Source: Escherichia coli (lineage in GTDB: Bacteria > Pseudomonadota > Gammaproteobacteria > Enterobacterales > Enterobacteriaceae). Taken from it: a stretch of DNA of 64,000 nt. The notes under the pieces were generated by a model, which worked only from the letters and a program-made list of their open reading frames with translations, was not told the origin of the DNA and searched no databases. Positions 24,185 through 60,723 of this stretch are shown here, piece after piece. Within the stretch, counting starts at the first letter, position 1; each line of letters opens with the position of its first letter. Both the position numbers and the translations under genes were made by a program. The stretch lies in assembly GCF_003334385.1 (NCBI RefSeq), contig NZ_QOWN01000026.1; one strand, given 5' to 3'.

Positions 24185-24547
24185 GGGGCTGATTCTGGAT
24201 TCGACGGGATTTGCGAAACCCAAGGTGCATGCCGAGGGGCGGTTGGCCTCGTAAAAAGCCGCAAAAAATAGTCGCAAACGACGAAAACTACGCTTTAGCA
24301 GCTTAATAACCTGCTTAGAGCCCTCTCTCCCTAGCCTCCGCTCTTAGGACGGGGATCAAGAGAGGTCAAACCCAAAAGAGATCGCGTGGAAGCCCTGCCT
24401 GGGGTTGAAGCGTTAAAACTTAATCAGGCTAGTTTGTTAGTGGCGTGTCCGTCCGCAGCTGGCAAGCGAATGTAAAGACTGACTAAGCATGTAGTACCGA
24501 GGATGTAGGAATTTCGGACGCGGGTTCAACTCCCGCCAGCTCCACCA
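24185..24547 (+). ncRNA. ssrA: tmRNA (transfer-messenger RNA)
   Basis: Starts GGGGCTGATTCTGGATTCGACGGG, ends GGGTTCAACTCCCGCCAGCTCCACCA; tag ORF GCA AAC GAC GAA AAC TAC GCT TTA GCA GCT TAA (ANDENYALAA) at 24274-24306. Confidence 0.97.
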
Positions 24548-24671
24548 ATCATGATTGGACGGTGTAAGGACAACACCAACAAAAACAGGAAGTTAGAAGT
24601 CTCAGCAAAACACCGACCAGACGGTGAGGAGACATAAAAGGATACGCAAAGGAGCCGCGGCTCCTGGTAAC

Positions 24672-52579: not shown

Positions 52580-53636
52580 TCAAAATAATCCGTGGGATAC
52601 CACGCCAGCGGCGGACAGTGCCGCGCAATCCGCAGACGCCTGGGGTACACCGACGACTGCACCGACTGACGGCGGTGGTGCTGACTGGCTGACCAGTACG
52701 CCTGCGCCAAACGTCGAGCATTTTAATATTCTCGATCCGTTCCATAAAACGCTGATCCCGCTCGACAGTTGGGTCACTGAAGGGATCGACTGGGTCGTTA
52801 CCCATTTCCGTCCCGTCTTCCAGGGCGTGCGCGTTCCGGTTGATTATATCCTCAACGGTTTCCAGCAATTGCTGCTGGGTATGCCCGCACCGGTGGCGAT
52901 TATCGTTTTCGCTCTCATCGCCTGGCAGATTTCCGGGATCGGAATGGGTGTGGCGACGCTGGTTTCGCTGATTGCCATCGGCGCAATCGGTGCCTGGTCG
53001 CAGGCAATGGTGACTCTGGCGCTGGTGTTAACCGCCCTGCTGTTCTGTATCGTCATCGGTTTGCCGTTGGGGATATGGCTGGCGAGAAGTCCGCGAGCGG
53101 CGAAAATTATTCGTCCACTGCTTGATGCCATGCAGACCACGCCAGCGTTTGTTTATCTGGTGCCAATCGTCATGCTATTTGGTATCGGTAACGTGCCGGG
53201 CGTGGTGGTGACGATCATCTTTGCTCTGCCGCCGATTATCCGTCTGACCATTCTGGGGATTAACCAGGTTCCGGCGGATCTGATTGAAGCCTCGCGCTCA
53301 TTCGGTGCCAGCCCGCGCCAGATGCTGTTCAAAGTTCAGTTACCGCTGGCGATGCCGACCATTATGGCGGGCGTTAACCAGACGCTGATGCTGGCCCTTT
53401 CTATGGTGGTCATCGCCTCGATGATTGCCGTCGGCGGGTTGGGTCAGATGGTACTTCGCGGTATCGGTCGTCTGGATATGGGGCTTGCCACCGTTGGCGG
53501 CGTCGGGATTGTGATCCTCGCCATTATCCTCGATCGTCTGACGCAGGCCGTTGGGCGCGACTCACGCAGTCGCGGCAACCGTCGCTGGTACACCACTGGC
53601 CCTGTTGGTCTGCTGACCCGCCCATTCATTAAGTAA
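52572..53636 (+). CDS. proW: Glycine betaine/proline ABC transporter permease
   Basis: 354-aa ORF; 8-nt overlap with proV. Confidence 0.95.
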
Positions 53637-53693
53637 CTCTGCACTTGCCCGGTGACGCCGGGCATTATCACCCTGCCAAAAAAAGGAATAACA

Positions 53694-54686
53694 ATGCGAC
53701 ATAGCGTACTTTTTGCGACAGCGTTTGCCACGCTTATCTCTACACAAACTTTTGCTGCCGATCTGCCGGGCAAAGGCATTACTGTTAATCCAGTTCAGAG
53801 CACCATCACTGAAGAAACCTTCCAGACGCTGCTGGTCAGTCGTGCGCTGGAGAAATTAGGTTATACCGTCAACAAACCCAGCGAAGTAGATTACAACGTT
53901 GGCTACACCTCGCTTGCTTCCGGCGATGCAACCTTCACCGCCGTGAACTGGACGCCACTGCATGACAACATGTACGAAGCTGCCGGTGGCGATAAGAAAT
54001 TTTATCGTGAAGGGGTATTTGTTAACGGCGCGGCACAGGGTTACCTGATCGATAAGAAAACCGCCGACCAGTACAAAATCACCAACATCGCACAACTGAA
54101 AGATCCGAAGATCGCCAAACTGTTCGATACCAACGGCGACGGAAAAGCGGATTTAACCGGTTGTAACCCTGGCTGGGGCTGCGAAGGTGCGATCAACCAC
54201 CAGCTTGCCGCGTATGAACTGACCAACACCGTGACGCATAATCAGGGGAACTACGCAGCGATGATGGCCGACACCATCAGTCGCTACAAAGAGGGCAAAC
54301 CGGTGTTTTATTACACCTGGACGCCGTACTGGGTGAGTAACGAACTGAAGCCGGGCAAAGATGTCGTCTGGTTGCAGGTGCCGTTCTCCGCACTGCCGGG
54401 CGATAAAAACGCCGATACCAAACTGCCGAATGGTGCGAATTATGGCTTCCCGGTCAGCACCATGCATATCGTTGCCAACAAAGCCTGGGCCGAGAAAAAC
54501 CCGGCAGCAGCGAAACTGTTTGCCATTATGCAGTTGCCAGTGGCAGATATTAACGCCCAGAACGCCATTATGCATGACGGCAAAGCCTCAGAAGGCGATA
54601 TTCAGGGACACGTTGATGGTTGGATCAAAGCCCACCAGCAGCAGTTCGATGGCTGGGTGAATGAGGCGCTGGCAGCGCAGAAGTAA
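53694..54686 (+). CDS. proX: Glycine betaine/proline periplasmic binding protein
   Basis: ORF 53652-54686; start placed at [21 protein letters not shown] (signal peptide) to give 330 aa. Confidence 0.95.
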
Positions 54687-54694
54687 TTTTTATT

Positions 54695-54775
54695 CGGGCG
54701 GATAAGGCGTTTTTGCCGCATCCGCCGTTCTGTGCACAATGCCTGATGCGACGCTGGCGCGTCTTATCATGCCTA
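54695..54775. repeat. REP elements downstream of proX
   Basis: CGGGCGGATAAGGCGTTTTTGCCGCATCCGCC and GCCTGATGCGACGCTGGCGCGTCTTATCATGCCTAC are REP-type palindromes. Confidence 0.75.
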
Positions 54776-54877
54776 CAAACCACATCGCACATTTCAACAA
54801 TCTATCTTTCATCCCATATTCATCAACATCCGCTATTATTGATTTCCAGCTTAATCATCACCTGATGAACAAAAATA

Positions 54878-56062
54878 ATGACTAAACCTAATCATGAGCT
54901 TAGCCCGGCGCTGATCGTGCTGATGTCTATCGCCACCGGTCTGGCGGTAGCCAGTAACTATTACGCCCAGCCATTGCTCGACACCATCGCGCGTAACTTT
55001 TCCCTTTCCGCCAGTTCGGCAGGCTTTATTGTTACCGCCGCGCAGTTGGGCTATGCCGCAGGTCTACTGTTTCTTGTTCCCCTCGGTGATATGTTTGAAC
55101 GCCGCCGCCTGATTGTCTCGATGACCTTACTGGCGGCATGCGGCATGTTGATTACCGCCAGCAGTCAGTCGCTGGCGATGATGATCCTCGGTACGGCATT
55201 AACCGGTTTATTCTCAGTCGTGGCACAAATTCTGGTTCCGCTGGCAGCGACGCTGGCTTCACCGGATAAACGCGGCAAAGTGGTTGGCACTATTATGAGC
55301 GGTCTGCTGTTGGGGATCTTGCTGGCACGGACAGTTGCCGGATTGCTGGCGAATCTCGGCGGCTGGCGCACCGTCTTTTGGGTTGCTTCGGTGTTAATGG
55401 CACTGATGGCGCTGGCATTATGGCGTGGTCTGCCACAAATGAAATCAGAAACCCACCTCAACTACCCACAGTTGTTGGGTTCCGTTTTCAGTATGTTTAT
55501 CAGCGATAAAATTCTGCGTACCCGCGCGTTGCTGGGCTGCCTGACCTTTGCCAATTTCAGCATTCTCTGGACCTCAATGGCCTTTTTGCTTGCCGCTCCA
55601 CCTTTTAACTACAGCGATGGTGTCATTGGTCTGTTTGGACTTGCGGGAGCTGCCGGAGCGTTGGGCGCTCGTCCGGCGGGCGGTTTTGCCGATAAGGGCA
55701 AATCGCACCACACCACAACTTTCGGTCTGCTGCTGCTATTACTTTCATGGCTGGCGATCTGGTTTGGTCACACTTCCGTACTGGCGTTGATTATCGGAAT
55801 CCTGGTGCTGGATCTCACCGTGCAGGGCGTGCATATCACTAACCAGACGGTAATTTATCGGATACATCCTGATGCGCGCAATCGCCTGACCGCAGGTTAC
55901 ATGACTAGCTACTTTATTGGCGGTGCCGCCGGTTCGCTAATTTCAGCCTCAGCCTGGCAACATGGCGGTTGGGCTGGCGTTTGTCTGGCTGGCGCGACGA
56001 TTGCCCTGGTTAACTTACTGGTCTGGTGGCGAGGTTTTCATCGTCAGGAAGCCGCAAATTAA
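54878..56062 (+). CDS. ygaY: MFS transporter YgaY (intact)
   Basis: Uninterrupted 394-aa ORF with about 12 predicted TM helices. Confidence 0.85.
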   Translation: MTKPNHELSPALIVLMSIATGLAVASNYYAQPLLDTIARNFSLSASSAGFIVTAAQLGYAAGLLFLVPLGDMFERRRLIVSMTLLAACGMLITASSQSLAMMILGTALTGLFSVVAQILVPLAATLASPDKRGKVVGTIMSGLLLGILLARTVAGLLANLGGWRTVFWVASVLMALMALALWRGLPQMKSETHLNYPQLLGSVFSMFISDKILRTRALLGCLTFANFSILWTSMAFLLAAPPFNYSDGVIGLFGLAGAAGALGARPAGGFADKGKSHHTTTFGLLLLLLSWLAIWFGHTSVLALIIGILVLDLTVQGVHITNQTVIYRIHPDARNRLTAGYMTSYFIGGAAGSLISASAWQHGGWAGVCLAGATIALVNLLVWWRGFHRQEAAN

Positions 56063-56185
56063 GCAATCAGCAACCGTTTTCGTGGCTTTACACTTATAAG
56101 GGTGTTAAGAAGCCCATCAGTCTGATAAGGTTAAGATATTCATTCAGTCTATTTATAATATTAACAATCGTTAAGCGTACACTCT

Positions 56186-56923
56186 ATGGAAAGCCCTACT
56201 CCACAGCCTGCTCCTGGTTCGGCGACCTTCATGGAAGGATGCAAAGACAGTTTACCGATTGTTATTAGTTATATTCCGGTGGCCTTTGCGTTCGGTCTGA
56301 ATGCGACCCGTCTGGGATTCTCTCCTCTCGAAAGCGTTTTTTTCTCCTGCATCATTTATGCAGGCGCGAGCCAGTTCGTCATTACCGCGATGCTGGCAGC
56401 CGGGAGTAGTTTGTGGATTGCTGCACTGACCGTCATGGCAATGGATGTTCGCCATGTGTTGTATGGCCCGTCACTGCGTAGCCGTATTATTCAGCGTCTG
56501 CAAAAATCGAAAACCGCCCTGTGGGCGTTTGGCCTGACGGATGAGGTTTTTGCCGCCGCAACCGCAAAACTGGTACGCAATAATCGCCGCTGGAGCGAGA
56601 ACTGGATGATCGGCATTGCCTTCAGTTCATGGTCATCGTGGGTATTTGGTACGGTAATAGGGGCATTCTCCGGCAGCGGCTTGCTGCAAGGTTATCCCGC
56701 CGTTGAAGCTGCATTAGGTTTTATGCTTCCGGCACTCTTTATGAGTTTCCTGCTCGCCTCTTTCCAGCGCAAACAATCTCTTTGCGTTACCGCAGCGTTA
56801 GTTGGTGCCCTTGCAGGCGTAACGCTATTTTCTATTCCCGTCGCCATTCTGGCAGGCATTGTCTGTGGCTGCCTCACTGCGTTAATCCAGGCATTCTGGC
56901 AAGGAGCGCCCGATGAGCTATGA
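56186..56923 (+). CDS. ygaZ: AzlC-family branched-chain amino-acid (valine) exporter subunit
   Basis: 245-aa membrane ORF recognised as YgaZ. Confidence 0.9.
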
Positions 56924-57248
56924 GGTTCTGCTGCTTGGGTTACTAGTTGGCGTGGCGAATTATTGCTTCCGCTATTTGCCGCTGCGCCTGCGTGTGGGTA
57001 ATGCCCGCCCAACCAAACGTGGCGCGGTAGGTATTTTGCTCGACACCATTGGCATCGCCTCGATATGCGCTCTGCTGGTTGTCTCTACCGCACCAGAAGT
57101 GATGCACGATACACGCCGTTTCGTGCCCACGCTGGTCGGCTTCGCGGTACTGGGTGCCAGTTTCTATAAAACACGCAGCATTATCATCCCAACACTGCTT
57201 AGTGCGCTGGCCTATGGGCTCGCCTGGAAAGTGATGGCGATTATATAA
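56913..57248 (+). CDS. ygaH: AzlD-family exporter subunit
   Basis: 111-aa membrane ORF; 11-nt overlap with ygaZ. Confidence 0.9.
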
Positions 57249-57338
57249 CCCACAAGAATCATTTTTCTAAAACAATACATTTACTTTATTTGTCACTGTC
57301 GTTACTATATCGGCTGAAATTAATGAGGTCATACCCAA

Positions 57339-57869
57339 ATGGATAGTTCGTTTACGCCCATTGAACAAATGCTAAAATTTCGCGCCAGCCGCCACGAAGA
57401 TTTTCCTTATCAGGAGATCCTTCTGACTCGTCTTTGCATGCACATGCAAAGCAAGCTGCTGGAGAACCGCAATAAAATGCTGAAGGCTCAGGGGATTAAC
57501 GAGACGTTGTTTATGGCGTTGATTACGCTGGAGTCTCAGGAAAACCACAGTATTCAGCCTTCTGAATTAAGTTGTGCTCTTGGATCATCCCGTACCAACG
57601 CGACGCGTATTGCCGATGAACTGGAAAAACGCGGTTGGATCGAACGTCGTGAAAGCGATAACGATCGCCGCTGCCTGCATCTGCAATTAACGGAAAAAGG
57701 TCACGAGTTTTTGCGCGAGGTTTTACCACCGCAGCATAACTGCCTGCATCAACTCTGGTCCGCGCTCAGCACAACAGAAAAAGATCAGCTCGAGCAAATC
57801 ACCCGCAAATTGCTCTCCCGTCTCGACCAGATGGAACAAGACGGTGTGGTTCTCGAAGCGATGAGCTAA
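57339..57869 (+). CDS. mprA: MarR-family repressor MprA (EmrR)
   Basis: 176-aa ORF recognised as MprA/EmrR. Confidence 0.95.
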
Positions 57870-57916
57870 CGCGTCATCTCGCTCAAAAATCCAGATTTAT
57901 AAAAGAAAAAATGACT

Positions 57917-57945
57917 GGCCAGCATCGCAACATGCTGGCCTTTTT
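57917..57945 (+). terminator. Intrinsic-terminator-like hairpin between mprA and emrA
   Basis: Perfect 9-bp stem GGCCAGCAT / ATGCTGGCC with a 6-nt loop, followed by TTTTT. Confidence 0.55.
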
Positions 57946-57995
57946 GGCAAGCAGGTCGGCTCAGCCGATGAGTTAAGAAGATCGTGGAGAACAAT

Positions 57996-59168
57996 ATGAG
58001 CGCAAATGCGGAGACTCAAACCCCGCAGCAACCGGTAAAGAAGAGCGGCAAACGTAAGCGTCTGCTCCTCCTTCTCACCTTGCTCTTTATAATTATTGCC
58101 GTAGCGATAGGGATTTATTGGTTTTTGGTACTGCGTCACTTCGAAGAAACCGATGACGCATACGTGGCAGGGAATCAAATTCAAATTATGTCTCAGGTGT
58201 CTGGCAGCGTGACGAAAGTCTGGGCCGATAACACCGATTTTGTAAAAGAAGGCGACGTGCTGGTCACTCTCGACCCGACAGATGCTCGCCAGGCGTTTGA
58301 AAAAGCCAAAACTGCACTGGCTTCCAGCGTTCGCCAAACCCACCAGCTGATGATTAACAGCAAGCAGTTGCAGGCGAATATTGAGGTGCAGAAAATCGCC
58401 CTCGCGAAAGCACAAAGCGACTACAACCGCCGTGTGCCGCTGGGCAATGCCAACCTGATTGGTCGCGAAGAGCTGCAACACGCCCGCGACGCCGTCACCA
58501 GTGCCCAGGCGCAACTGGACGTCGCGATTCAACAATACAATGCCAATCAGGCGATGATTCTGGGGACTAAACTGGAAGATCAGCCAGCCGTGCAACAGGC
58601 TGCCACCGAAGTACGTAACGCCTGGCTGGCGCTGGAGCGTACTCGTATTATCAGTCCGATGACCGGTTATGTCTCCCGCCGCGCGGTACAGCCTGGGGCG
58701 CAAATTAGCCCAACGACGCCGCTGATGGCGGTCGTTCCAGCCACCAATATGTGGGTGGATGCCAACTTTAAAGAGACGCAGATTGCCAATATGCGTATCG
58801 GTCAGCCGGTCACTATCACCACGGATATTTACGGCGATGATGTGAAATACACCGGTAAAGTGGTTGGTCTGGATATGGGCACAGGTAGCGCGTTCTCACT
58901 GCTTCCAGCGCAAAATGCGACCGGTAACTGGATCAAAGTCGTTCAGCGTCTGCCTGTGCGTATCGAACTGGACCAGAAACAGCTGGAGCAATATCCGCTG
59001 CGTATCGGTTTGTCCACGCTGGTGAGCGTCAATACCACTAACCGTGACGGTCAGGTACTGGCAAATAAAGTACGTTCCACTCCGGTAGCGGTAAGCACCG
59101 CGCGTGAAATCAGCCTGGCACCTGTCAATAAACTGATCGACGATATCGTAAAAGCTAACGCTGGCTAA
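57996..59168 (+). CDS. emrA: Multidrug efflux membrane fusion protein EmrA
   Basis: ORF 57984-59168; start placed at MSANAETQTPQQ (ATG 57996) to give 390 aa. Confidence 0.95.
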   Translation: MSANAETQTPQQPVKKSGKRKRLLLLLTLLFIIIAVAIGIYWFLVLRHFEETDDAYVAGNQIQIMSQVSGSVTKVWADNTDFVKEGDVLVTLDPTDARQAFEKAKTALASSVRQTHQLMINSKQLQANIEVQKIALAKAQSDYNRRVPLGNANLIGREELQHARDAVTSAQAQLDVAIQQYNANQAMILGTKLEDQPAVQQAATEVRNAWLALERTRIISPMTGYVSRRAVQPGAQISPTTPLMAVVPATNMWVDANFKETQIANMRIGQPVTITTDIYGDDVKYTGKVVGLDMGTGSAFSLLPAQNATGNWIKVVQRLPVRIELDQKQLEQYPLRIGLSTLVSVNTTNRDGQVLANKVRSTPVAVSTAREISLAPVNKLIDDIVKANAG

Positions 59169-59184
59169 TCCAGAGGTGCGTGTG

Positions 59185-60723
59185 ATGCAACAGCAAAAAC
59201 CGCTGGAAGGCGCGCAACTGGTCATTATGACGATTGCGCTGTCACTGGCGACATTCATGCAGGTGCTGGACTCCACCATTGCTAACGTGGCGATCCCCAC
59301 TATCGCCGGGAATCTGGGCTCATCGCTCAGCCAGGGAACGTGGGTAATCACTTCTTTCGGGGTGGCGAATGCCATCTCGATCCCGCTTACCGGCTGGCTG
59401 GCAAAGCGCGTCGGGGAAGTGAAACTGTTCCTTTGGTCCACCATCGCCTTTGCTATTGCGTCGTGGGCGTGTGGTGTCTCCAGCAGCCTGAATATGCTGA
59501 TCTTCTTCCGCGTGATTCAGGGGATTGTCGCCGGGCCGTTGATCCCGCTTTCGCAAAGTCTATTGCTGAATAACTACCCGCCAGCCAAACGCTCGATCGC
59601 GCTGGCGTTGTGGTCGATGACGGTGATTGTCGCGCCAATTTGCGGCCCGATCCTCGGCGGTTATATCAGCGATAATTACCACTGGGGCTGGATATTCTTC
59701 ATCAACGTGCCGATTGGCGTGGCGGTGGTGTTGATGACACTGCAAACTCTGCGCGGACGTGAAACCCGCACCGAACGGCGGCGGATTGATGCCGTGGGGC
59801 TGGCACTGCTGGTTATTGGTATCGGCAGCCTGCAGATTATGCTCGACCGCGGTAAAGAGCTGGACTGGTTTTCATCACAGGAAATTATCATCCTTACCGT
59901 GGTGGCGGTGGTGGCTATCTGCTTCCTGATTGTCTGGGAGCTGACCGACGATAACCCGATAGTCGATCTGTCGTTGTTTAAGTCGCGCAACTTCACCATC
60001 GGCTGCTTGTGTATCAGCCTCGCGTATATGCTCTACTTCGGCGCTATTGTTCTGCTGCCGCAGTTGTTGCAGGAGGTCTACGGTTACACGGCGACCTGGG
60101 CAGGTTTGGCCTCTGCGCCGGTAGGGATTATTCCGGTGATCCTGTCGCCGATTATCGGCCGCTTCGCGCATAAACTGGATATGCGGCGGCTGGTAACCTT
60201 CAGCTTTATTATGTATGCCGTCTGCTTCTACTGGCGTGCCTATACCTTTGAACCAGGTATGGATTTTGGCGCGTCGGCCTGGCCGCAGTTTATCCAGGGG
60301 TTTGCGGTGGCCTGCTTCTTTATGCCGCTGACCACCATTACGCTGTCTGGTTTGCCACCGGAACGACTGGCGGCGGCATCGAGCCTCTCTAACTTTACGC
60401 GAACGCTGGCGGGGTCTATCGGCACGTCGATAACCACGACCATGTGGACCAACCGCGAGTCAATGCACCATGCGCAGTTGACTGAGTCGGTAAACCCGTT
60501 CAACCCGAATGCCCAGGCGATGTACAGTCAACTGGAAGGGCTTGGGATGACGCAACAGCAGGCATCAGGCTGGATTGCCCAGCAGATCACCAATCAGGGG
60601 CTGATTATTTCCGCCAATGAGATCTTCTGGATGTCAGCCGGGATATTCCTCATCCTGCTGGGGCTGGTGTGGTTTGCTAAACCGCCATTTGGCGCAGGTG
60701 GCGGCGGAGGCGGTGCGCACTAA
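59185..60723 (+). CDS. emrB: Multidrug efflux MFS pump EmrB
   Basis: ORF 59176-60723 (GTG); start placed at ATG 59185 (MQQQKPLEGAQ) to give 512 aa. Confidence 0.95.
   Translation: MQQQKPLEGAQLVIMTIALSLATFMQVLDSTIANVAIPTIAGNLGSSLSQGTWVITSFGVANAISIPLTGWLAKRVGEVKLFLWSTIAFAIASWACGVSSSLNMLIFFRVIQGIVAGPLIPLSQSLLLNNYPPAKRSIALALWSMTVIVAPICGPILGGYISDNYHWGWIFFINVPIGVAVVLMTLQTLRGRETRTERRRIDAVGLALLVIGIGSLQIMLDRGKELDWFSSQEIIILTVVAVVAICFLIVWELTDDNPIVDLSLFKSRNFTIGCLCISLAYMLYFGAIVLLPQLLQEVYGYTATWAGLASAPVGIIPVILSPIIGRFAHKLDMRRLVTFSFIMYAVCFYWRAYTFEPGMDFGASAWPQFIQGFAVACFFMPLTTITLSGLPPERLAAASSLSNFTRTLAGSIGTSITTTMWTNRESMHHAQLTESVNPFNPNAQAMYSQLEGLGMTQQQASGWIAQQITNQGLIISANEIFWMSAGIFLILLGLVWFAKPPFGAGGGGGGAH

What the first reader, a model, noticed from the sequence alone, without database searches (positions are those of the whole stretch)
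54878..56062. ygaY is an intact 394-aa MFS transporter here
The reading frame is uninterrupted with about 12 TM helices, whereas I recall ygaY as a pseudogene in MG1655. Together with the missing CP4-57 and the ypjA amber codon, this suggests a non-MG1655 background in which a cryptic transporter is functional.
Basis: partly seen in the sequence, partly recalled or inferred. Interest (0 to 1): 0.3.

Follow-up and report, generated by a model that had tools for sequence, protein, structure and literature searches.

The report
Intact wild-type ygaY transporter gene
This is the ordinary full-length version of the E. coli membrane-transporter gene ygaY, which only the K-12 laboratory lineage has broken by losing one copy of a 7-base tandem repeat, so the finding is correct but already known.

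Summary
Window 54878-56062 (+) is an uninterrupted 394-codon ORF. It encodes a 12-helix MFS transporter (Pfam MFS_1 on both halves; AlphaFold pLDDT 95).

MG1655 ygaY (b2681, annotated pseudogene) differs from it by one event only. K-12 has lost one unit of a perfect 7-bp tandem repeat (GCGGCAT GCGGCAT, window 55133-55146). That shifts the frame after codon 88 and runs straight into a TGA stop.

The deletion allele is in 353 of 5,426 complete E. coli genomes, and every sampled carrier whose name or source is recognisable is a K-12 derivative. All 13 non-K-12 genomes inspected carry an intact 1,185-bp gene. Divergent alleles give dN/dS of 0.01-0.11, so the gene is under purifying selection.

The exact window allele (Cys88) matches 679 natural isolates over a 94-base probe. 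It also occurs in backgrounds about 2-3% divergent, and K-12 nests among its carriers, so the window allele is the direct precursor of the K-12 lesion.

The background is otherwise 99.93-99.98% identical to K-12. It lacks CP4-57 and carries a ypjA amber codon.

The substrate is unknown (TCDB 2.A.1.36.3, YnfM family). The fold most resembles DHA1 exporters.

Verdict: the finding is real and correctly interpreted, but it is already in RefSeq (WP_000165680.1, "MFS transporter") and ygaY's crypticity in K-12 is in the literature. Interest is low.

The parts
54878..56062 (+). ygaY coding sequence, intact: 394 codons plus a TAA stop. It encodes a 12-TM MFS transporter. At the DNA level it is identical to the CDS of strain 720632, which RefSeq names WP_000165680.1 'MFS transporter'.
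   Evidence: ORF listing; Pfam MFS_1 matched twice; AF2 model pLDDT 95.1; 0 differences from the 720632 CDS; the same protein accession is annotated in ETEC1718, TB4328, BDSF8-3 and SCU-104.
55133..55147 (+). Perfect 7-bp tandem repeat GCGGCAT GCGGCAT (+G), giving 15 bases of period-7 identity. K-12 retains only one unit. The loss shifts the frame after codon 88 and creates an immediate TGA stop, leaving an 88-aa product.
   Evidence: Alignment with MG1655 places the only gap at window 55133-55139; sequence read directly; K-12 product computed as 88 aa ending ...LLAAC*.
55139..55141 (+). Codon 88 is TGC (Cys) here, in TM3. Six of eight divergent E. coli alleles examined have GGC (Gly). The T at 55139 sets the register of the repeat (GCGGCAT x2 here, versus GGCGGCA x2 in Gly88 alleles).
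   Evidence: Allele comparison. Position 88 is variable and hydrophobic across the family (L16/V16/A15/I7/C3/T2 of 64), so Cys is plausibly tolerated.
54696..54773 (+). REP-type palindromic element in the proX-ygaY intergenic region. It matches Rfam naRNA4 (RF02564) above the gathering score and lies between the proX stop and the ygaY start.
   Evidence: Rfam hit at 72.2 bits against a gathering score of 59.5; inverted repeat at 54697-54726; the 1.5-kb query hit a median of 8 places per genome, consistent with a dispersed repeat.

Best explanation
The ORF is the wild-type, full-length allele of E. coli ygaY.

Shown here:
- It encodes a 12-transmembrane-helix Major Facilitator Superfamily protein. 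It has the cytoplasmic motif-A-like loop between TM2 and TM3 (P68-L-G70-D71-x3-R75-R76-R77) and a second such loop after TM8 (G268...D272).
- It retains a family-conserved set of polar or charged residues: R151 (TM5 helix), D312/Q316/H319/N322/Q323 (TM10 helix) and R336.
- The K-12 pseudogene arose from exactly this allele by loss of one unit of the 7-bp tandem repeat GCGGCAT GCGGCAT. The most likely cause is replication slippage. The product is truncated at residue 88.
- That lesion is confined to the K-12 lineage. Elsewhere in the species the gene is intact and under strong purifying selection.

Inferred:
- The protein is a proton-motive-force-coupled secondary transporter working by the MFS rocker-switch mechanism.
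- It is most likely an exporter of a small organic solute, either a metabolite or a xenobiotic. This rests on its fold being closest to DHA1 exporters and on its membership of the YnfM family, whose one studied E. coli member exports glutarate.
- The substrate is unknown.
- In this strain the gene should yield full-length protein whenever the locus is transcribed. Transcription is probably low under standard conditions, because the upstream DNA is identical to K-12's and the locus there is weakly expressed and associated with H-NS/StpA.

Confidence by part: about 0.97 for identity and the nature of the K-12 lesion; about 0.8 for being functional in this strain; about 0.55 for exporter direction.
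For: - ORF and coordinates.
- Single 7-bp difference from MG1655 b2681.
- Junction-specific 34-mer probe: found in 353 of 5,426 genomes, and every one of the 60 sampled records with a recognisable name or source is a K-12 derivative (MG1655, BW25113, C600, J53, JM109, TG1, MC4100, O16:H48). The 80-mer probe gives 354.
- Exact window 94-mer: found in 679 genomes from humans, baboon, pig, chicken, kangaroo and wastewater.
- Local 29-kb SNP matrix: MG1655 lies 5-9 SNPs from the Cys88-intact strains window, ETEC1718, TB4328 and BDSF8-3. The Cys88-intact strains A30 and APEC E956 are 605-880 SNPs away from that cluster. The intact TGC allele therefore predates the K-12 deletion.
- Thirteen non-K-12 genomes are all annotated with an unflagged 1,185-bp CDS.
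- dN/dS is 0.009-0.112 across 27 informative allele pairs.
- Pfam MFS_1. AF2 model. Foldseek matches SotB, MdfA and NorA at E 3e-12 to 6e-10 and TMq 0.79-0.85.
- Full-length 26% identity to E. coli YnfM, pairwise E 6e-21.
- TCDB lists YgaY (P76628) as 2.A.1.36.3, as cited in PMC5417439.
- YnfM is reported as a CCCP-sensitive glutarate exporter (PMC12622518).
- Conserved residues retained.
Against: - No transport or expression data exist for this allele.
- No sigma-70-like promoter was found between proX and ygaY at the scan's threshold.
- In K-12 the locus is weakly transcribed and some ChIP data show H-NS there (PMC10656529), so the gene may be largely silent.
- No NCBIfam model reaches its curated cut-off. 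The best is 78.5 bits against a cut-off of 418.6.
- The classical DHA antiporter motif C (with its GP) is not recognisable in TM5.
- Direction of transport therefore rests only on fold resemblance and on a paralog with 26% identity.
- The ynfM knockout alone abolished glutarate export in BL21(DE3). That argues against YgaY being a redundant glutarate exporter there, assuming BL21 has an intact, expressed ygaY, which was not checked.
Confidence: 0.9

Rival explanations
1. The frame is intact but the gene is effectively silent. It would have no promoter of its own and be repressed by H-NS/StpA, so this strain is phenotypically no different from K-12 under ordinary conditions.
For: No consensus promoter lies upstream of ygaY. 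The only strong promoter-like site (10 of 12 matches) is at 56131-56159, ahead of ygaZ. K-12 transcript levels are low and rise only modestly after osmotic shock. StpA insulates the locus from proVWX read-through, and an H-NS-mediated bridge is reported between the proVWX downstream regulatory element and ygaY. The window's DNA from 52939 to 60461 is identical to K-12 apart from the 7 bp.
Against: dN/dS of 0.01-0.11 across E. coli and 93-98% protein identity in Citrobacter, Salmonella, E. fergusonii and E. albertii show that the protein is used in nature under some condition. The promoter scan is a crude consensus matcher.
Confidence: 0.25
2. YgaY is an importer (solute:H+ symporter) rather than an exporter.
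For: MFS folds do not dictate direction. The top NCBIfam partial hit is an aromatic acid/H+ symporter subfamily. The top PDB sequence hit is the GlcP glucose symporter, matching the N-terminal half only. The classical antiporter motif C is not evident.
Against: The whole-chain structural best matches are exporters (SotB, MdfA, NorA). The only characterised E. coli member of the same TCDB family, YnfM, acts as an exporter. The neighbouring genes ygaZH and emrAB are exporters, but that is weak evidence because co-regulation has not been shown.
Confidence: 0.25
3. The Cys88 allele is itself a hypomorph. Under this view the Gly-to-Cys change in TM3 relaxed selection in this sub-lineage, and the K-12 frameshift is the second step of ongoing decay.
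For: Six of eight divergent E. coli alleles have Gly88.
Against: Position 88 is variable and hydrophobic across the family, with Cys in 3 of 64 sequences. The exact allele persists in 679 natural genomes and in two backgrounds 2-3% divergent from K-12, without further lesions in any genome inspected.
Confidence: 0.08
4. The window allele is a revertant. Under this view a K-12-type frameshift was repaired by a 7-bp tandem duplication (GCGGCAT) in a different register, which would explain Cys88.
For: Formally, the window sequence equals the K-12 sequence plus a tandem duplication. The K-12 sequence can also be derived directly from a Gly88 allele, which contains GGCGGCA twice.
Against: The deletion allele was seen only in K-12-lineage genomes. 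The Cys88-intact allele occurs in backgrounds 605-880 SNPs per 29 kb away from the K-12 cluster, while K-12 sits 5-9 SNPs from several Cys88-intact strains. Reversion would therefore need repeated identical duplications or recombination.
Confidence: 0.03

Closest known systems
E. coli YgaY (UniProt P76628; TCDB 2.A.1.36.3; RefSeq WP_000165680.1 'MFS transporter')
   Same: It is the same gene at the same locus (proVWX - ygaY - ygaZH - mprA/emrR - emrAB). The coding DNA is identical to the CDS annotated WP_000165680.1 in strain 720632. The same accession is annotated in ETEC1718, TB4328, BDSF8-3 and SCU-104.
   Different: Nothing differs from the natural allele. Relative to the K-12 reference copy it has 7 extra bases, which keep the frame open.
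E. coli YnfM (b1596), type member of TCDB family 2.A.1.36. It is reported as a glutarate exporter, and its overexpression increased extracellular anthocyanin (C3G) production.
   Same: Same TCDB family. The two align end to end at 26% identity (E 6e-21) with the same 12-TM layout. YnfM export is CCCP-sensitive, implying proton coupling.
   Different: It is only a distant paralog. Nothing shows that they share a substrate. ynfM has a divergent LysR-type neighbour (ynfL), whereas ygaY has no adjacent dedicated regulator.
DHA1 drug:H+ antiporters SotB, MdfA and NorA (solved structures 6kkk/6kkl, 4zow/6euq, 8tte)
   Same: These are the best structural matches to the model (Foldseek E 3e-12 to 6e-10, query-normalised TM-score 0.79-0.85, RMSD 2.4-4.4 A). 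All are 12-TM MFS proteins with an inward-open rocker-switch architecture.
   Different: Sequence identity is 15-18%. Curated NCBIfam models for DHA1-type families are far below their cut-offs (Bcr/CflA 52 against 200.9; EmrD 39 against 479). The canonical motif C with GP in TM5 is not present.

Membership tests
Major Facilitator Superfamily (Pfam clan MFS, PF07690) | Significant match to the MFS_1 profile covering both six-helix halves | tested here: met
   PF07690 matches residues 17-273 (E 8.5e-32) and 218-385 (E 3.2e-11).
Major Facilitator Superfamily (Pfam clan MFS, PF07690) | Twelve transmembrane helices arranged as two pseudo-symmetric 6-helix bundles | tested here: met
   The AF2 model (pLDDT 95.1, pTM 0.93) has helices 10-25, 45-65, 75-94, 99-126, 132-161, 163-184 | 211-239, 247-272, 276-298, 301-329 and 331-393 (two TMs). 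Query-normalised TM-scores are 0.79-0.85 to the solved 12-TM MFS structures SotB, MdfA and NorA.
Major Facilitator Superfamily (Pfam clan MFS, PF07690) | Motif A (G-x-x-x-D-R/K-x-G-R-R/K) in the TM2-TM3 loop | tested here: met
   The window has P68-L-G70-D71-M-F-E-R75-R76-R77. In 64 family representatives P68 is in 64, G70 in 59, D71 in 62, R75 in 52 and R76 in 45. A second copy follows TM8 (G268 in 64 of 64, D272 in 61 of 64).
TCDB 2.A.1.36 YnfM (acriflavin-sensitivity) family | Significant full-length sequence similarity to the type member YnfM | tested here: met
   BLASTP of YgaY against MG1655 YnfM gives 26% identity over 409 columns, E 6e-21. TCDB lists P76628 as 2.A.1.36.3, as cited in PMC5417439.
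TCDB 2.A.1.36 YnfM (acriflavin-sensitivity) family | Shared transport activity (dicarboxylate or drug efflux) | not testable with these tools
   It needs transport or resistance assays. TCDB gives YgaY's function as 'Unknown'.
DHA1 drug:H+ antiporter family (TCDB 2.A.1.2; NCBIfam Bcr/CflA, EmrD, etc.) | Score above the curated family cut-off | tested here: not met
   Bcr/CflA TIGR00710 scores 52.0 bits against a cut-off of 200.9. EmrD NF008654 scores 39.2 against 479. Cmx/CmrA scores 53.9 against 400.
DHA1 drug:H+ antiporter family (TCDB 2.A.1.2; NCBIfam Bcr/CflA, EmrD, etc.) | Antiporter motif C, G(x)8G(x)3GP(x)2GG, in TM5 (motif recalled from established knowledge) | tested here: inconclusive
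   TM5 is glycine-rich and conserved (G137, G142, G146, R151, G155, each in at least 59 of 64 sequences). It lacks the Gly-Pro pair (sequence).
K-12 ygaY pseudogene allele (b2681) | A single GCGGCAT unit, with a frameshift after codon 88 | tested here: not met
   The window has two units (55133-55146) and an open frame. A junction-specific probe finds the deletion only in 353 genomes; all sampled carriers with a recognisable name or source are K-12 lineage.

The most novel reading that the evidence does not exclude
YgaY might have a specific physiological substrate whose export matters in the gut or the environment. Candidates would be a dicarboxylate or a compatible-solute-related metabolite, given the YnfM-family relationship and the position next to proVWX and ygaZH. 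If so, K-12, the standard model strain, would be a natural null mutant for that efflux route, and some K-12-specific metabolite-excretion or tolerance phenotypes would trace to this 7-bp loss.
Probability: 0.12. Interest if true: 0.35.

Novelty: already known. Interest (0 to 1): 0.08.

Why it matters
It matters little as a discovery. Public annotation already calls this gene an intact MFS transporter in every non-K-12 genome inspected, and calls it a pseudogene or 'frameshifted' in K-12. K-12 workers routinely use ygaY as a neutral pseudogene control, and several metabolic-engineering and imaging papers mention the locus.

The practical points are modest:
- ygaY is not a neutral locus in non-K-12 strains, where it is under purifying selection.
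- The K-12 lesion is a clean example of slippage at a 7-bp tandem repeat, and the window preserves its direct precursor allele.
- Restoring 7 bp in K-12 would give an isogenic pair for de-orphaning a YnfM-family transporter.

Tried and rejected
- **NCBIfam scan.** It gave 27 partial MFS hits, none near a curated cut-off, so no specific functional name can be assigned.
- **PDB sequence search.** It found only distant MFS matches (best GlcP, E 6e-9, N-terminal half only).
- **Gene neighbourhood of distant homologs.** One sits beside an AraC-type regulator and an FMN_bind_2 protein. Another is embedded among flagellar genes. Nothing is conserved, so context gives no substrate clue.
- **Promoter and terminator scan.** It found no consensus promoter upstream of ygaY. 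The terminator-like hits are at the level expected from shuffles, so it is uninformative on operon structure.
- **Reversion hypothesis.** I considered that the window allele is a 7-bp duplication repairing the K-12 frameshift. I rejected it on allele distribution and local haplotype distances.
- **Direct origin of the K-12 deletion from a Gly88 allele.** This is formally possible, because Gly88 alleles contain GGCGGCA twice. It is disfavoured because K-12 is identical to the Cys88 haplotype at all 1,178 other gene positions. In the 94-mer search, no sampled row fell between 100% and 96.8% identity.
- **KR2009.** This 'chicken' isolate carries the deletion, but it is only 2 SNPs from MG1655 over 29 kb. 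I treated it as K-12-derived, not as a natural carrier.
- **SNP row at window position 4.** It is unreliable because the flank is too short, and I ignored it.

Full report
**1. The observation**

Its product matches Pfam MFS_1 over both halves: residues 17-273 (E 8.5e-32) and 218-385 (E 3.2e-11). An AlphaFold2 model built on 64 family representatives is very confident (mean pLDDT 95.1, pTM 0.93). It is all-helical with the 6+6 transmembrane layout. Foldseek against the PDB puts 12-TM MFS exporters at the top: SotB, MdfA and NorA, with E 3e-12 to 6e-10 and query-normalised TM-scores of 0.79-0.85.

The gene sits in the canonical E. coli context nrdHIEF - proVWX - ygaY - ygaZH - mprA(emrR) - emrAB - luxS.

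**2. Comparison with K-12**

MG1655 annotates ygaY (b2681, 2808316..2809493, 1178 bp) as a pseudogene. A global alignment of the two genes shows a single difference: 7 bases present in the window (55133-55139) and absent in MG1655, with no substitutions at all.

The window reads ...CTG GCGGCAT GCGGCAT G..., a perfect tandem duplication of a 7-mer with 15 bases of period-7 identity (55133-55147). K-12 has one unit. The loss shifts the frame after codon 88 and the next codon is TGA, so the K-12 product is an 88-residue stub ending inside TM3.

**3. Distribution of the lesion**

- The 1.5-kb locus is present at 80% coverage or better in 5,414 of 5,426 complete E. coli genomes.
- An 80-mer spanning the K-12 junction matches at 99% or better in 354 genomes. 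All other genomes fall in identity bands consistent with a 7-bp-longer allele.
- A 34-mer junction probe that cannot seed on the intact allele hits 353 genomes. All 60 records sampled evenly down that list that have a recognisable name or source are K-12 derivatives: MG1655, BW25113, C600, J53, S17-1, JM109, TG1, MC4100, EPI300 and O16:H48 mouse-colonisation isolates.
- One carrier labelled 'chicken' (KR2009) is 2 SNPs from MG1655 over 29 kb. RefSeq flags its gene as 'frameshifted'. I regard it as K-12-derived.
- Thirteen non-K-12 genomes inspected individually all carry an unflagged 1,185-bp CDS named 'MFS transporter'. They are SMS-3-5, UPEC 536, O157 ATCC 43889, LY180, O121 RM8352, CX12, 720632, A30, ETEC1718, TB4328, BDSF8-3, APEC E956 and SCU-104.

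**4. Is the intact gene under selection?**

Nei-Gojobori estimates on eight alleles give dS up to 0.18 and dN/dS of 0.009-0.112 in all 27 informative pairs. That is strong purifying selection.

Orthologs at 93-98% protein identity exist in E. fergusonii, E. albertii, E. marmotae, Shigella, Citrobacter and Salmonella. The wider family has 1,152 50%-identity clusters at E<=1e-30.

The window's protein retains every position that is at least 90% conserved in a 64-sequence family alignment. These include Y28, Q31, Q56, G62, P68, G70, D71, R151, G268, D272, N322, R336 and S353. It also retains D312 and Q316.

**5. Order of events at codon 88**

Codon 88 is TGC (Cys) in the window but GGC (Gly) in six of eight divergent alleles. 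Gly88 alleles read CT GGCGGCA GGCGGCA TG, which is also a perfect 7-bp tandem in a register shifted by one base. The K-12 sequence could therefore formally come from either allele. The window allele could also formally be a K-12 frameshift repaired by duplication.

Three observations settle this in favour of 'Cys88-intact, then K-12 deletion':
- K-12 is identical to the window at all other 1,178 positions of the gene.
- The exact window 94-mer is in 679 genomes from many hosts and countries.
- Over 29 kb of shared flanking sequence, MG1655 lies 5-9 SNPs from the Cys88-intact strains window, ETEC1718, TB4328 and BDSF8-3. Two other Cys88-intact strains, A30 and APEC E956, are 605-880 SNPs from that cluster.

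The intact TGC allele is therefore older and more widespread than the K-12 lineage, and K-12 nests among its carriers.

Position 88 is a variable hydrophobic site in the family (L/V/A/I/C/T). I therefore do not expect Cys to disable the protein.

**6. The strain background**

The window is collinear with MG1655 2731409-2755956 and 2777964-2817431 at 99.976% and 99.927% identity. The 22-kb CP4-57 prophage is precisely absent next to ssrA.

ypjA carries an amber codon at residue 232 (TAG, window 28595-28593 on the minus strand). Both features are shared with natural isolates such as SCU-104, where RefSeq flags ypjA as 'internal stop' and ssrA is followed directly by ypjA.

**7. How the protein most likely works**

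Shown here:
- The MFS fold.
- Motif-A-like loops after TM2 and TM8.
- A conserved arginine in the TM5 helix (R151, 63 of 64 sequences).
- A conserved polar and acidic cluster in the TM10 helix: D312 (57 of 64), Q316, H319, N322 and Q323.

Inferred:
- An alternating-access secondary transporter coupled to the proton gradient.

Evidence for export:
- The fold is closest to DHA1 exporters.
- TCDB places YgaY in the YnfM family as 2.A.1.36.3, function 'Unknown' (PMC5417439).
- I confirmed a full-length 26% identity alignment to E. coli YnfM.
- YnfM is reported as a CCCP-sensitive glutarate exporter in BL21(DE3), and its overexpression increased extracellular anthocyanin production (PMC12622518, PMC12014714).

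Evidence against over-interpreting this:
- No NCBIfam model comes near its cut-off.
- The classical antiporter motif C is not evident.
- The neighbourhoods of distant homologs are not conserved.
- The ynfM knockout alone abolished glutarate export in BL21.

I put exporter direction at about 0.55. The substrate remains unknown.

**8. Expression**

Between window 52939 and 60461 the only difference from K-12 is the 7 bp, so regulation should be as in K-12. There, ygaY transcripts are low and rise modestly after hyperosmotic shock, and more so without StpA. An H-NS-mediated bridge links the proVWX downstream regulatory element to ygaY (PMC10656529). That paper explicitly refers to the 'crypticity of ygaY'.

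A consensus scan finds no strong sigma-70 site upstream of ygaY. It does find a 10-of-12 match at 56131-56159, ahead of ygaZ. The proX-ygaY spacer holds a REP-type element that matches Rfam naRNA4.

The rival that the gene is intact but usually silent therefore cannot be dismissed (about 0.25). The selection data, however, show it is used somewhere in nature.

**9. Novelty and verdict**

The protein is identical to an existing RefSeq entry (WP_000165680.1). The K-12 pseudogene status is in the reference annotation and in the literature. K-12 workers use ygaY deletions as neutral pseudogene controls.

The finding is real and correctly interpreted, but already known. The only added value here is the exact description of the lesion (slippage at a 7-bp tandem repeat), evidence that the window preserves its direct precursor allele, and the population counts. 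Interest is low.

Noticed in passing
window 9843, 17636, 27546, 29216, 30793, 31184, 34630, 35402, 45946, 51703, 52938, 60462, 60652, 62524: Of the 25 SNPs against MG1655, 14 are private to the window relative to the close natural relatives available at each site. Twelve of the 14 are G:C>A:T transitions: nine G>A on the + strand, and three C>T clustered at 30793-34630. In intact genes they split 7 nonsynonymous (yfjD D91N, ypjA P25S, ypjB A67T, alaE S74N, proW V123I, emrB V490I, gshA A162E) to 4 synonymous, which looks unselected. Even the best of 5,426 genomes is not identical over 25 kb (bit score below the maximum). This suggests a mutagenised, mutator or recently bottlenecked lineage. None of these SNPs lies in ygaY.
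   Followed up: partly
window about 24525-24548 (3' end of ssrA): The 22-kb cryptic prophage CP4-57 (MG1655 about 2755957-2777963) is precisely absent, and the ssrA 3' end runs directly into the ypjA region. SCU-104 and other natural isolates have the same empty site.
   Followed up: yes
window 24708-29288 (- strand), stop at 28593-28595: ypjA (adhesin-like autotransporter) has an amber codon at residue 232 (Q232*), plus P25S, N189D and R273S relative to MG1655. The amber is shared with SCU-104, where RefSeq marks ypjA as 'internal stop'. It is therefore a natural lineage polymorphism, not private to the window.
   Followed up: yes
window 32959-35211 (+): The ygaQ region has the same three internal stops as the MG1655 pseudogene. 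RefSeq flags it 'internal stop' in the K-12-like cluster (ETEC1718, TB4328, BDSF8-3, KR2009, SCU-104). In the divergent strain A30 it is annotated as an intact alpha-amylase-family glycosyl hydrolase. Unlike the ygaY lesion, this pseudogene is shared by the whole K-12-like cluster.
   Followed up: partly
window 54696-54773: A REP-type palindromic element between proX and ygaY matches Rfam naRNA4 (RF02564) at 72.2 bits against a gathering score of 59.5. It also explains why the 1.5-kb query hit a median of 8 places per genome.
   Followed up: partly
window 56131-56159 (+): The best sigma-70-like site in the region (TTAAGA-17-TATAAT, 10 of 12 matches) lies in the ygaY-ygaZ spacer. This suggests that ygaZH has its own promoter independent of ygaY.
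   Followed up: no
L015 (NZ_CP040664.1, strain KR2009): A genome labelled as a chicken-faeces isolate from China carries the K-12 ygaY deletion and differs from MG1655 by 2 SNPs over 29 kb. It is probably a K-12 derivative or laboratory contaminant rather than a wild isolate.
   Followed up: partly
protein P0001: A 596-aa ENA metagenome protein tops the homolog list (1089 bits, 73% identity over the full query). That is about 200 residues longer than any other YgaY. It may be a fusion, a partial duplication or a mis-assembly.
   Followed up: no
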